Source: Escherichia phage BEU50
Sequence record: OM632671.1
Direction: 5' to 3' (one strand)
Length of the DNA: 64,000 bases
Part shown: positions 35,090-36,082 of the stretch, piece by piece
Position numbering within the stretch: position 1 is the first letter of the stretch
Layout of the letters: each line of letters opens with the position of its first letter
Translations under genes and position numbers: made by a program
The notes under the pieces: generated by a model
What the model saw: only the letters and a program-made list of their open reading frames with translations
What the model was told of the DNA's origin: nothing
Databases searched by the model: none

Positions 35090-36082
35090 ATGTTACCTGT
35101 CGTCGGAAAACTTATTTCTCCAAAAGAACTGGCTGAGATTATTCCTTTGTCGGAAGCTTACGCATCACAAGTGGCTTCTCATCGCGAACAAGTTAATTCG
35201 ATTATGAACGGTGAAGACCCACGCAAACTTATTGTTGTAGGTCCTTGTTCAATTCATGACCCTATTGCTGCTGTTGAATACGGCAAACGTTTGGCTGAAC
35301 TTCAAACTCGTCTTCCTAATGTTCTGTTAGTGATGCGCGTTTATTTTGAAAAGCCTCGAACTACCGTAGGTTGGAAAGGTCTTGTAAATGATCCATATCT
35401 TGACGGAAGTTTTGATATGAACCACGGTCTTATAGTTGCACGAACATTGTGTCGTAAACTTCTACGTATGGGACTTCCATTAGCAACTGAAGTATTAGAC
35501 CCATTCACGATTAAGTATCTTTCTGGTATTTTCTCATGGGTTGCTATTGGCGCCCGTACGACTGAAAGTCAGACACATCGTGAAATTGCTTCAGGTCTAC
35601 CGATGTGCGTAGGCTTCAAGAACGCAACCAATGGTTCTATTAAAGTAGCTACAGACGCGATGTATAGTGCCGCCTGGCCTCATCGGTATATGGGTATGGA
35701 CGTCGATGGTACTGTAGGCATTGTTGAAGCTGAAGGTAATCAGAATACGCATATCGTATTGCGTGGCGGGACCAACGGCCCGAACTATCATTCTTCTGAT
35801 ATTCAAGAAGCTTCTAACAAAGCAAGTGCAGTAGGTCTGAATCATTATGTAATGGTTGACTGTAGCCATGCAAACGCTGCTGGGCATTATAGCAATCAAA
35901 TTGGTATTGGTAAAAATTTAGCAGCTAATGATTTGGTCAAAGGAATTATGATAGAATCATTCCTACATGAAGGAAATCAAAAAATTTCTGATAATATGTC
36001 CTATGGCGTTTCCATTACCGATGCGTGCATCAGTTGGGAACAAACTAAAGAGCTGTTAACTTATATTAATAAGGTTCAATAA
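35090..36082 (+). CDS. 3-deoxy-D-arabino-heptulosonate 7-phosphate (DAHP) synthase, class I (AroG-like)
   Basis: 330 aa; KLIVVGPCSIHD, KPRTTVGWKGL, GARTTESQ, HANA motifs alignable along whole length to E. coli AroG; stop overlaps cd start. Confidence 0.85.
   Translation: MLPVVGKLISPKELAEIIPLSEAYASQVASHREQVNSIMNGEDPRKLIVVGPCSIHDPIAAVEYGKRLAELQTRLPNVLLVMRVYFEKPRTTVGWKGLVNDPYLDGSFDMNHGLIVARTLCRKLLRMGLPLATEVLDPFTIKYLSGIFSWVAIGARTTESQTHREIASGLPMCVGFKNATNGSIKVATDAMYSAAWPHRYMGMDVDGTVGIVEAEGNQNTHIVLRGGTNGPNYHSSDIQEASNKASAVGLNHYVMVDCSHANAAGHYSNQIGIGKNLAANDLVKGIMIESFLHEGNQKISDNMSYGVSITDACISWEQTKELLTYINKVQ

What the first reader, a model, noticed from the sequence alone, without database searches (positions are those of the whole stretch)
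35090..36082. Phage-encoded class I DAHP synthase translationally coupled to dCMP deaminase
A 330 aa ORF carries the hallmark motifs of AroG/AroF/AroH-type DAHP synthase (KLIVVGPCSIHD, KPRTTVGWKGL, GARTTESQ) and aligns along its whole length with E. coli AroG at roughly half identity by eye, with phage-like AT-rich codon usage. Its stop overlaps the cd start (TAATG). This is the first committed step of aromatic amino acid synthesis, and I do not recall a homologue in T4. The N-terminus is about 8 residues shorter than AroG, a region involved in feedback inhibition.
Basis: partly seen in the sequence, partly recalled or inferred. Interest (0 to 1): 0.8.

Follow-up and report, generated by a model that had tools for sequence, protein, structure and literature searches.

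The report
Phage DAHP synthase with rebuilt feedback site
This T4-like coliphage carries an intact copy of the enzyme that opens the aromatic (shikimate) pathway; the gene is already annotated in about 200 phage genomes, but its feedback-inhibitor pocket has been rebuilt, and it occurs only in phages that also carry a U32-family gene whose bacterial relatives need prephenate, a shikimate-pathway product, so it may feed the phage's DNA-cytosine hydroxylation rather than just amino-acid supply.

Summary
Window 35090-36082 (+) is a 330-aa type I-alpha DAHP synthase (TIGR00034, 427 bits; 51/48/44% identical to E. coli AroF/AroG/AroH). All metal, PEP and E4P ligands are intact, and its stop overlaps the cd start (TAATG).

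It is not a new gene. It is 99% identical to annotated genes in 139 Mosigvirus records, belongs to PHROG 5045, and has been noted in papers as an auxiliary metabolic gene of unknown role.

New here:
- The phage homologues form one clade (bootstrap 200/200). Only six alignment columns separate them from bacterial enzymes, and all six lie in or next to the Phe/Tyr inhibitor site (P150I, Q151K, D155G, S180P, F209Y, T223A). The N-terminus is also 8-10 residues shorter. I predict feedback insensitivity.
- Every DAHPS-bearing lineage I checked also carries a U32-family gene, often with an adjacent chorismate mutase, inside the 5-hydroxycytosine DNA-modification cluster. Phages of the aerobe Acinetobacter have that cluster but lack U32, chorismate mutase and DAHPS.
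- Bacterial U32 enzymes (RlhA, TrhP, UbiU/V) need prephenate, shown to be the oxygen donor for UbiU/V. I infer that the phage enzyme supplies prephenate for oxygen-independent cytosine hydroxylation.

RB69 lacks the gene. A cd.2 fragment shows it entered Mosigvirus as a cassette.

The parts
35090..36082 (+). DAHP synthase gene (330 aa, type I-alpha, phage clade)
   Evidence: Searches identify it. All 14 metal, PEP and E4P residues are conserved. The AlphaFold model has pLDDT 93 and TM 0.96 to AroG and Neisseria DAH7PS structures.
35510..35515 (+). Codons for Ile141-Lys142, replacing AroG Pro150-Gln151 in the inhibitor pocket
   Evidence: I in 24/25 and K in 24/25 phage clusters, against P in 88/98 and Q in 98/98 bacterial sequences. 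AroG P150L is fully feedback-resistant and Q151 contacts the inhibitor (PMC9529685).
35600..35602 (+). Codon for Pro171, replacing AroG Ser180 (an inhibitor main-chain contact)
   Evidence: P in 25/25 phage clusters against S in 97/98 bacterial sequences. AroG S180F is feedback-resistant.
35687..35689 (+). Codon for Tyr200, replacing AroG Phe209. The other clade-specific codons are Gly146 (35525-27, for AroG Asp155) and Ala214 (35729-31, for AroG Thr223).
   Evidence: AroG F209A/S and V221A are feedback-resistant, and D155 is listed among inhibitor-site residues.
35080..35084 (+). Shine-Dalgarno sequence AAGGA, 5 nt upstream of the ATG
   Evidence: Read directly from the sequence. It fixes the short N-terminus as real.
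34956..35081 (+). 41-aa ORF that is a leftover 3' half of a foreign cd.2 gene (insertion scar of the DAHPS cassette)
   Evidence: Pfam DUF7320 28.7 bits. It is 19/49 and 20/45 identical to cd.2 of phages PEi26 and F48, against 12/49 to the phage's own cd.2.
34733..34969 (+). cd.2 (DUF7320), the resident full-length copy
34675..34703 (+). Early-promoter-like site, TTTACA-17-TACTAT with TG, between cd.3 and cd.2
   Evidence: T4 has its early promoter in the same intergenic position, noted in its record. Consensus match only; function is inferred.
36082..36663 (+). cd (dCMP deaminase, 193 aa); its start overlaps the DAHPS stop

Best explanation
The ORF encodes an active, metal-dependent type I-alpha DAHP synthase (PEP + erythrose-4-phosphate -> DAHP). 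It is probably transcribed early, from a promoter-like site upstream of cd.2, and feeds the host's remaining shikimate-pathway enzymes.

Shown at sequence level: the whole phage clade keeps every catalytic residue, but the Phe/Tyr inhibitor pocket is replaced by a different, conserved set of residues, and the N-terminal segment that closes that pocket across the dimer is missing. Inferred from this: the enzyme is not inhibited by aromatic amino acids.

Inferred from gene co-distribution and known U32 biochemistry: the most likely purpose is to raise chorismate and then prephenate. Prephenate would be made by a phage chorismate mutase in most genera and by host PheA/TyrA in Mosigvirus. A phage U32-family protein encoded next to the 5-hydroxy-dCMP synthase would then use prephenate as an oxygen donor, giving an oxygen-independent route to the 5-hydroxycytosine that these phages arabinosylate. 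Each such hydroxylation would release phenylpyruvate and hence Phe, which would shut off host AroG. That would explain why a feedback-blind enzyme is needed.

My sub-probabilities are: active DAHP synthase about 0.95; feedback-insensitive about 0.65; serves the U32/prephenate route about 0.45-0.5.
For: Enzyme identity.

Catalytic residues: C53, R83, K88, P89, R90, T91, E134, A155, R156, K177, R225, H260, E289 and D311 are invariant in 25 phage clusters spanning 56-99% identity. Inter-genus dN/dS is 0.14-0.24.

Rebuilt pocket: an unbiased column scan found only 6 discriminating columns, all at or beside the inhibitor site. The N-terminal segment is 5-9 residues against 13-16 in bacteria. Published feedback-resistant AroG/AroF mutants map to the same positions or segment: P150L, S180F, F209A/S, V221A, Q151 variants, and AroF with Ile11 deleted.

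Origin: the phage clade is monophyletic at 200/200. The position pseT-cd.x-[DAHPS]-cd-31-rIII is conserved in 6 lineages.

U32 link:
- RB69 gp50 and F48 gp095 match Pfam Peptidase_U32 at 42-45 bits.
- F48 gp096, which overlaps the U32 stop, matches CM_2 at 39.5 bits against a cut-off of 27. Chorismate mutase lies between U32 and the TS-homologue in 51 records.
- The U32 distribution (221 records: Escherichia 136, Klebsiella 26, Shigella 14, Proteus 7, Serratia 7, and no Acinetobacter among the listed names) nearly mirrors DAHPS (212 records: 124, 25, 12, 7, 6).
- The arabinose genes are also present in 57 Acinetobacter phage records, which do not appear among the U32 or chorismate-mutase hits and carry no phage-clade DAHPS.
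- Of about 1,720 PseT-positive records, the great majority have neither gene.
- U32 family biochemistry: RlhA makes ho5C in rRNA and needs the prephenate-synthesis genes; prephenate is the oxygen donor for UbiU/V and yields phenylpyruvate.
- Mosigvirus, already U32-positive, acquired DAHPS secondarily as a cassette.
Against: - No activity or inhibition data exist.
- Mosigvirus, the lineage of this window, has no detectable phage chorismate mutase; PHROG 8601 replaces it.
- RB69 and most Yersinia phages have U32 without DAHPS, so DAHPS is dispensable.
- Phage U32 is only 16-23% identical to RlhA/TrhP/UbiU/UbiV. In my alignment it lacks the stretch holding RlhA Cys169/Cys176, although it has other Cys clusters. 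Its activity is untested.
- A flavin/O2-dependent 5-hydroxy-dCMP synthase already explains 5hoC in air.
- Co-distribution was compared by organism counts and about 10 spot checks, not record by record, and shared ancestry could produce part of it.
- Among six Mosigvirus strains the gene shows 11 nonsynonymous against 7 synonymous changes. The strains were picked for low amino-acid identity, which biases this, but some relaxed constraint cannot be excluded.
- He et al. 2026 and Mahler et al. 2025 could not be read.
Confidence: 0.5

Rival explanations
1. It is a generic auxiliary metabolic gene. A deregulated DAHP synthase keeps aromatic amino acids, or chorismate products such as folate and quinones, flowing for phage protein and nucleotide synthesis after host gene expression is shut off, with no special link to DNA modification.
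For: This is the default reading in the literature. DAHPS is the flux-controlling, feedback-inhibited step. The gene sits among early nucleotide-metabolism genes. RB69 makes arabinosyl-5hoC without it.
Against: It does not explain why no phage of the large Tequatrovirus, Jiaodavirus or Slopekvirus groups appeared among the hits while nearly all U32-bearing lineages have the gene. It also does not explain why the same genomes encode a chorismate mutase inside a DNA-modification cluster.
Confidence: 0.3
2. The rebuilt pocket is not dead but binds a different effector, for example a phage nucleotide or a pathway intermediate, so the enzyme is re-regulated rather than deregulated. This reading is compatible with either purpose.
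For: The replacement residues (I, K, G, P, Y, A) are themselves conserved in 24-25 of 25 clusters over deep divergence. That argues for constraint rather than decay. Gln to Lys, together with loss of the acidic N-terminal residues, changes the pocket's charge.
Against: Conservation could simply stabilise an always-active conformation. No candidate ligand is known, and no docking or binding data were obtainable here.
Confidence: 0.15
3. The enzyme acts as an erythrose-4-phosphate sink. By irreversibly removing E4P it would pull fructose-6-P plus glyceraldehyde-3-P through transketolase towards pentose phosphates, supporting the large arabinose demand of the DNA modification.
For: DAHPS-bearing lineages all carry the UDP-arabinose genes.
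Against: 57 Acinetobacter phage records have the arabinose pathway and no phage-clade DAHPS. RB69 lacks DAHPS. The U32/chorismate-mutase distribution fits better. The idea rests on stoichiometric reasoning only.
Confidence: 0.05
4. It is a passenger gene without function in this phage (recent cassette, relaxed selection), or an enzyme with changed substrate, for example arabinose-5-phosphate as in KDO8P synthase.
For: Among Mosigvirus strains nonsynonymous changes outnumber synonymous ones, 11 to 7. The gene is absent from RB69.
Against: The ORF is intact in 139 Mosigvirus records. All catalytic residues, including the E4P-type KPRT motif, are invariant. Inter-genus dN/dS is 0.14-0.24. There is no NCBIfam KdsA match. 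The strain sample for one search was biased towards amino-acid differences.
Confidence: 0.04

Closest known systems
E. coli AroF (Tyr-sensitive DAHP synthase; PDB 6AGM) and AroG (Phe-sensitive; 1KFL)
   Same: Same type I-alpha family and fold: 51% and 48% identity, TM 0.96. The metal ligands (Cys, His, Glu, Asp) and the PEP/E4P residues are identical. The beta6a/6b regulatory hairpin is retained, and Gly is present at the AroG Ser211 position, as in AroF.
   Different: The N-terminus is shorter by 10 (AroF) or 8 (AroG) residues. Inhibitor-pocket residues are replaced (P150I, Q151K, D155G, S180P, F209Y, T223A in AroG numbering). The protein scores below the curated AroG and AroH equivalog cut-offs. 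It is encoded by a phage, with phage codon usage.
Engineered feedback-resistant DAHP synthases (AroG P150L, S180F, F209A/S, Q151 variants; AroF with Ile11 deleted)
   Same: The substitutions or deletion fall at the same positions or in the same segment.
   Different: In the phage clade several changes are combined, arose naturally, and have been conserved across genera. The phenotype has not been measured.
Annotated phage 'phospho-2-dehydro-3-deoxyheptonate aldolase' genes (PHROG 5045; e.g. JS09, PhAPEC2, O157 typing phages, F48, X20, PM2, PEi20)
   Same: It is the same gene, 97.9-99.7% identical in protein to other Mosigvirus copies and found at the same genomic position.
   Different: Nothing distinguishes this copy. 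Only annotation-level mentions were found in the papers I could read.
Prephenate-dependent U32 hydroxylation systems (RlhA for ho5C in 23S rRNA, TrhP for ho5U in tRNA, UbiU/UbiV)
   Same: The related phages encode a Peptidase_U32 protein and often a chorismate mutase next to the cytosine-5-hydroxylation gene. The chemistry needed, C5 hydroxylation of a pyrimidine, is what RlhA and TrhP do, and those systems depend on the shikimate pathway.
   Different: The phage U32 protein is very divergent (16-23% identity) and has a different cysteine pattern. The substrate would be dCMP or DNA. Nothing has been tested. The U32 gene lies outside this window.
Cyanophage pentose-phosphate and Calvin-cycle auxiliary genes (talC, cp12, zwf, gnd)
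   Same: These are also phage-borne central-carbon enzymes that redirect host flux during infection.
   Different: They act on a different pathway. They serve dNTP and NADPH supply, not supply of a co-substrate for base modification.

Membership tests
Type I-alpha DAHP synthase (AroF/AroG/AroH family, TIGR00034) | Profile score above the curated family cut-off over the full length | tested here: met
   TIGR00034 427 bits against 173; NF009395 455 against 343; Pfam PF00793 252 bits.
Type I-alpha DAHP synthase (AroF/AroG/AroH family, TIGR00034) | Metal ligands Cys61, His268, Glu302, Asp326 (AroG numbering) | tested here: met
   C53, H260, E289 and D311 are present and invariant in all 25 phage clusters.
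Type I-alpha DAHP synthase (AroF/AroG/AroH family, TIGR00034) | PEP and E4P binding residues, including the KPRT motif (Arg92, Lys97, Arg99, Thr100, Arg165, Lys186, Arg234) | tested here: met
   R83, K88, R90, T91, R156, K177 and R225 are invariant.
Type I-alpha DAHP synthase (AroF/AroG/AroH family, TIGR00034) | (beta/alpha)8 barrel with N-terminal extension and beta6a/6b hairpin | tested here: met
   The AlphaFold2 model has pLDDT 93. Foldseek gives TM 0.96 and rmsd 1.4 A to 1GG1, 1KFL and 4HSO. Strands 198-203 and 209-214 form the hairpin. This is a predicted, not a solved, structure.
Type I-alpha DAHP synthase (AroF/AroG/AroH family, TIGR00034) | Catalysis of PEP + E4P -> DAHP | not testable with these tools
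   Needs an enzyme assay or complementation of an aroF aroG aroH mutant.
Feedback-regulated isoenzymes AroG / AroF / AroH | Canonical inhibitor pocket (Pro150, Gln151, Asp155, Ser180, Phe209) plus N-terminal residues 6-10 from the partner subunit | tested here: not met
   The residues are I141, K142, G146, P171 and Y200, and the N-terminal residues are absent. The AroG and AroH equivalog scores are below their cut-offs (364 < 568; 386 < 463).
KDO8P synthase (KdsA), the sister activity within Pfam DAHP_synth_1 | A KdsA-type profile match and the absence of the KPRT E4P motif | tested here: not met
   No KdsA model appears among the NCBIfam hits, and KPRT is present.
Phage auxiliary metabolic gene family PHROG 5045 | Full-length match to the PHROG profile, in a phage genome context | tested here: met
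   604 bits over residues 1-330. The flanking genes are T4-type pseT, cd.3, cd.2, cd, 31.1 and 31.
Prephenate-dependent U32 hydroxylation module (proposed system: DAHPS + chorismate mutase + U32) | A U32-family protein encoded in the same genome | tested here: inconclusive
   It cannot be seen in this window. It is present in near-identical Mosigvirus genomes (p000y, HY126, JS09) and in F48, X20, PEi20, Entb_45, Virsaitis27 and PSTCR6.
Prephenate-dependent U32 hydroxylation module (proposed system: DAHPS + chorismate mutase + U32) | A phage chorismate mutase adjacent to U32 | tested here: not met
   This is met in Marfavirus, Kanagawavirus, Winklervirus, and Yersinia, Erwinia, Providencia and Shewanella phages. 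In Mosigvirus the slot holds an unrelated PHROG 8601 ORF.
Prephenate-dependent U32 hydroxylation module (proposed system: DAHPS + chorismate mutase + U32) | Fe-S cysteine motif and prephenate-dependent hydroxylase activity of the U32 protein | tested here: inconclusive
   The C-terminal CX5CX3CX2C and the CSNA motif are conserved, but the RlhA Cys169/Cys176 stretch is not aligned. Activity cannot be tested with these tools.

The most novel reading that the evidence does not exclude
The phage DAHP synthase is the entry enzyme of a dedicated, phage-encoded supply line (feedback-blind DAHP synthase -> host shikimate enzymes -> phage or host chorismate mutase -> prephenate). This line would fuel a U32-family, oxygen-independent hydroxylase that makes 5-hydroxycytosine for phage DNA. 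It would be a second, anaerobic route beside the known flavin/O2-dependent 5-hydroxy-dCMP synthase, analogous to the TrhO/TrhP pair in tRNA, and it would be the first use of prephenate as an oxygen donor for DNA modification. It would also explain why gut and sewage enterobacterial phages carry these genes while phages of the aerobe Acinetobacter do not.
Probability: 0.4. Interest if true: 0.85.

Novelty: new variant of a known kind. Interest (0 to 1): 0.55.

Why it matters
The existence of the gene is already on record, so finding it is not news. Two things would matter if confirmed.

First, nature appears to have produced and conserved a multiply substituted, N-terminally trimmed DAHP synthase at exactly the positions that metabolic engineers mutate to remove feedback inhibition. 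That would be a ready-made deregulated enzyme.

Second, the gene's distribution points to a purpose. It occurs only in T4-like phages that carry a U32-family gene, usually with a chorismate mutase, inside the 5-hydroxycytosine cluster, and it is absent from phages of an obligate aerobe. This suggests prephenate supply for oxygen-independent hydroxylation of DNA cytosine.

That idea would give a function to three unexplained genes (DAHPS, chorismate mutase and the 'peptidase' gp50). It would extend the recently discovered organic oxygen-donor chemistry from RNA and quinones to DNA. It would explain how these phages could keep their anti-restriction modification in the anoxic gut. It can be tested directly with deletion phages, anaerobic infections and LC-MS of virion DNA.

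Tried and rejected
1. Obligatory link to the arabinose-5-phosphate isomerase / UDP-arabinose genes. I rejected this as the primary link. RB69 has them without DAHPS. 57 Acinetobacter phage records have them without phage-clade DAHPS. Marfavirus has DAHPS without the isomerase.

2. Functional coupling to cd through the TAATG overlap. I rejected this. Such overlaps are routine here (pseT/cd.4 at 33992), and X20 and PM2 have intervening ORFs.

3. A chorismate mutase hidden among the small ORFs beside DAHPS (X20 gp193, PM2 gp159/160, F48 gp195, T4 cd.1, the window's 51-aa ORF). No CM_2 match was found.

4. RB69 ORF049c as a divergent chorismate mutase. There is no Pfam or NCBIfam hit, no BLASTP similarity to the F48 chorismate mutase, and it belongs to a different PHROG.

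5. KDO8P-synthase-like substrate switch. The KPRT motif and E4P residues are intact and there is no KdsA hit.

6. Recent capture from the E. coli host. I rejected this. The best bacterial homologues are at most about 55% identical, the phage clade is monophyletic, and codon usage is fully phage-like.

7. Literature searches for experimental work on phage DAHP synthase found only annotation-level mentions. Searches for phage + U32 + prephenate found nothing. Two key subscription papers could not be opened.

8. Sequence search of RB69 gp50 against solved structures gave no hit.

9. An Rfam scan of the nrdB insertion found no group I intron at gathering score.
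Full report
**Observation.** Window 35090..36082 (+) is a single 330-aa ORF.
- Its start is fixed by an in-frame TGA at 35054-56, with no other start codon before the ATG, and by an AAGGA Shine-Dalgarno sequence 5 nt upstream.
- The stop TAA shares its last base with the ATG of the next gene, a 193-aa dCMP deaminase (Pfam PF00383; PHROG 174).

**Identity.**
- Pfam DAHP_synth_1 gives E=6e-75. NCBIfam TIGR00034 (aroFGH equivalog) gives 427 bits against a cut-off of 173, and NF009395 gives 455 against 343. 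The AroG- and AroH-specific models fall below their cut-offs.
- The best solved relative is E. coli AroF (6AGM, E=2e-104).
- Identity to MG1655 AroF, AroG and AroH is 51, 48 and 44%.
- An AlphaFold2 model has pLDDT 93 and superposes on AroG and Neisseria DAH7PS structures with TM 0.96 and rmsd 1.4 A.
- The metal ligands (AroG C61, H268, E302, D326) and the PEP/E4P residues (R92, K97, P98, R99, T100, E143, A164, R165, K186, R234) are all conserved, both here and in every one of 25 phage clusters.

**The gene is already known.**
- Megablast finds the gene in 145 phage records, 128 of them at 99% or higher. Nearly all are Mosigvirus coliphages (JS09, PhAPEC2, the O157 typing phages, HY126 and others), and many annotate it as phospho-2-dehydro-3-deoxyheptonate aldolase or DAHP synthase.
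- tblastn finds 212 records, adding Klebsiella (Marfavirus), Serratia (X20), Proteus (PM2), Edwardsiella (PEi20/26), Enterobacter, Erwinia and Providencia phages.
- It is PHROG 5045, filed in the 'moron, auxiliary metabolic gene and host takeover' category.
- Three papers mention it at annotation level. One lists it as an auxiliary metabolic gene of unknown function in Mosigvirus.
- I found no experimental study.

**Evolution and context.**
- In a search of 5.8 billion proteins, the phage homologues (319-343 aa, 56-99% identical) are separated from bacterial ones (341-385 aa, at most about 55% identical).
- The phage homologues form one clade with 200/200 neighbour-joining bootstrap support, on the AroF side of the tree.
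- GC3 (29%) and codon usage match the phage, not E. coli aro genes.
- Between genera, dN/dS is 0.14-0.24.
- The gene always sits in the slot pseT - cd.4/3/2 - [DAHPS] - cd - 31.x - 31 - rIII. This holds in Mosigvirus, Marfavirus F48, Winklervirus X20, Bragavirus PM2, Kanagawavirus PEi26 and an uncultured T4-like contig.
- T4 has the unrelated cd.1 at that site.
- RB69, the type Mosigvirus, has nothing there: cd.2 abuts cd.
- The 41-aa ORF just upstream of DAHPS in this window is a second, partial cd.2. It resembles the cd.2 of PEi26 and F48 (about 40% identity) more than the phage's own cd.2 (24%).
- Among six Mosigvirus strains, synonymous diversity in DAHPS is 0.031 per site, against 0.30 in the adjoining cd and 0.15 in pseT.
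- Taken together, DAHPS appears to have entered Mosigvirus as a cassette from another T4-like lineage and spread recently. RB69 represents the uninserted state.
- A T4-early-type promoter-like site (TTTACA-17-TACTAT) lies between cd.3 and cd.2, where T4 has an early promoter. Early expression is therefore inferred.
- The TAATG overlap with cd is routine packing and is not conserved in X20 or PM2.

**The rebuilt inhibitor site.**
- I scanned the alignment of 25 phage and 98 bacterial sequences for columns where each group is at least 88% conserved on a different residue. Only six columns qualified: AroG P150->I, Q151->K, D155->G, S180->P, F209->Y and T223->A.
- Q151, D155, S180 and F209 are listed inhibitor-site residues. 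P150L, S180F, F209A/S and V221A (two residues from T223) are published feedback-resistant AroG mutants (PMC9529685).
- The phage proteins also have only 5-9 residues before the first conserved helix, against 13-16 in bacteria. This removes the equivalents of AroG Asp6/Asp7. Deleting a single residue, Ile11, in this segment makes AroF feedback-resistant (PMC10729320).
- The pocket has therefore been specifically remodelled and the new residues conserved, while catalysis is untouched.
- I infer insensitivity to Phe, Tyr and Trp. A new effector is a possible alternative.

**What the enzyme is for.** I first tested a link to the arabinosyl-5-hydroxycytosine (5hoC) DNA modification that Mosigvirus carries (PMC13326640). 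The arabinose genes do not fit as the partner:
- RB69 has them without DAHPS.
- 57 Acinetobacter phage records have them without phage-clade DAHPS.
- Marfavirus lacks the isomerase.

A different member of the same cluster fits much better:
- RB69 gp50 and F48 gp095, annotated as 'peptidase', are Pfam Peptidase_U32 proteins.
- Their distribution nearly mirrors that of DAHPS. U32 is in 221 records (Escherichia 136, Klebsiella 26, Shigella 14, Proteus 7, Serratia 7, Enterobacter 4, Edwardsiella 3, and no Acinetobacter among the listed names). DAHPS is in 212 records (124, 25, 12, 7, 6, 4, 3).
- These sit within about 1,720 PseT-positive records, most of which have neither gene.
- In F48 the U32 stop overlaps the start of an 81-aa chorismate mutase (CM_2, 39.5 bits against a cut-off of 27). 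The same small gene lies between U32 and the thymidylate-synthase-like 5-hydroxy-dCMP synthase in 51 records from Klebsiella, Serratia, Yersinia, Enterobacter, Edwardsiella, Erwinia, Providencia, Morganella and Shewanella phages.

In bacteria the U32 family comprises:
- RlhA, which makes 5-hydroxycytidine in 23S rRNA and requires the prephenate-synthesis genes and Fe-S clusters (PMC5727448).
- TrhP, which makes ho5U in tRNA by a prephenate-dependent, oxygen-independent route (PMC6599085).
- UbiU/UbiV, for which prephenate was shown to be the oxygen donor, releasing phenylpyruvate (PMC10990095).

[quoted passage not shown] This would parallel the flavin/O2-dependent enzyme already demonstrated. 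Because each turnover would yield phenylpyruvate and hence Phe, the main host enzyme AroG (about 79% of activity) would be shut down. That gives a reason for a feedback-blind DAHP synthase and a monofunctional chorismate mutase. The absence of all three genes from phages of the strict aerobe Acinetobacter fits this reading.

None of the readable papers makes this connection. The NAR 2026 paper labels gp50 'sugar or heterocycle reductase' and never mentions U32, prephenate or DAHP. The Thanatos and Durham-collection papers do not mention them either.

**Caveats.**
- All functional steps are inferred.
- Mosigvirus itself has no detectable phage chorismate mutase; an unrelated PHROG 8601 ORF occupies that slot.
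- RB69 and most Yersinia phages have U32 without DAHPS, so DAHPS is an accessory booster at most.
- The phage U32 is only 16-23% identical to the E. coli paralogues. It has a different cysteine pattern: the C-terminal CX5CX3CX2C is conserved, but the RlhA Cys169/Cys176 stretch is not aligned.
- Distributions were compared by counts and spot checks, not genome by genome, and shared ancestry may contribute to the pattern.
- The excess of nonsynonymous changes within Mosigvirus (11 against 7) comes from strains I chose for low amino-acid identity.
- He et al. 2026 and Mahler et al. 2025 could not be read.

**Verdict.** What goes beyond current annotation is (a) a clade-wide, conserved remodelling of the allosteric site, shown at sequence level, and (b) a specific, testable hypothesis for its role, supported by gene co-distribution and by established U32 biochemistry. 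I score interest at 0.55. I rate novelty as 'new variant of a known kind', meaning a known enzyme family and a known phage gene with an undescribed regulatory variant and a putative dedicated role.

Noticed in passing
window 1-29,000 versus 29,000-64,000 (junction inside nrdB, about 27,950-28,990): The window is a mosaic. From the nrdB 3' part and denA onward it is 95-99% identical to Mosigvirus HY126. The left part (gp34 tail fibre, rnh, dsbA, 33, nrdA, nrdB 5' part) is only 70-88% identical to HY126 but 93-99% identical to Tequatrovirus phages such as RB3 and JB75. No phage record covers 80% or more of 14000-34000. It could be a natural hybrid, a chimeric assembly or an engineered sequence.
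   Followed up: partly
window about 24,480-24,620 (between gene 33 and nrdA): Genes 59, 32 (the essential ssDNA-binding protein), frd and td lie between 33 and nrdA in HY126 and in the best-matching Tequatrovirus records. They are missing here and are not found anywhere in the 64-kb window. A DUF4326 ORF (24621..24947) directly precedes nrdA.
   Followed up: partly
window 27,254-29,521: nrdB is split into two Ribonuc_red_sm halves (27254..27943 and 28988..29521) by an insertion encoding a 269-aa HNH endonuclease (28074..28883). By position and size this resembles the nrdB intron homing endonuclease of T-even phages, which I recall from memory and did not check. Rfam found no group I intron at gathering score. 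The Tequatrovirus/Mosigvirus switch coincides with this insertion.
   Followed up: partly
window 34,956-35,081: A 41-aa ORF upstream of DAHPS is a partial duplicate of the C-terminal half of cd.2. It is closer to cd.2 of PEi26 and F48 than to the resident cd.2, and looks like a recombination scar of the DAHPS cassette.
   Followed up: yes
window 35,090-36,663 compared with L001, L013-L016: There is a sharp change in strain-level diversity at the DAHPS/cd boundary. Synonymous diversity is 0.031 per site in DAHPS and 0.30 in cd, which starts at the overlapping base.
   Followed up: partly
RB69 L006 8257-9662 (-); F48 L022 11,524-15,409; HY126 L023 3,522-5,678: In related genomes, and outside this window, a U32 'peptidase' gene sits next to the thymidylate-synthase-like 5-hydroxy-dCMP synthase. 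In many genera an overlapping 80-aa chorismate mutase lies between them. In Mosigvirus the chorismate-mutase slot holds an unrelated ORF (PHROG 8601), which is truncated to 40 aa in HY126.
   Followed up: yes
window 36,961-36,988: A MotA-box-like middle-promoter match (ATATGCTTTA...TATTAT) lies just upstream of gene 31 (37019..37351).
   Followed up: no
L017 4899-6062 (Aeromonas phage HJ05); L018 4745-5795 (faecal phage contig): Unrelated phage lineages carry other DAHP synthases (35-38% identical) with intact catalytic residues and non-canonical inhibitor-site residues. HJ05 also has Pro at the AroG Ser180 position. Whether this reflects their bacterial donors or convergence was not examined.
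   Followed up: partly
window 36,082-36,663 versus RB69 L012 7743-8252: The dCMP deaminase here is 193 aa, but the RB69 copy is annotated as 170 aa. The difference was not examined.
   Followed up: no
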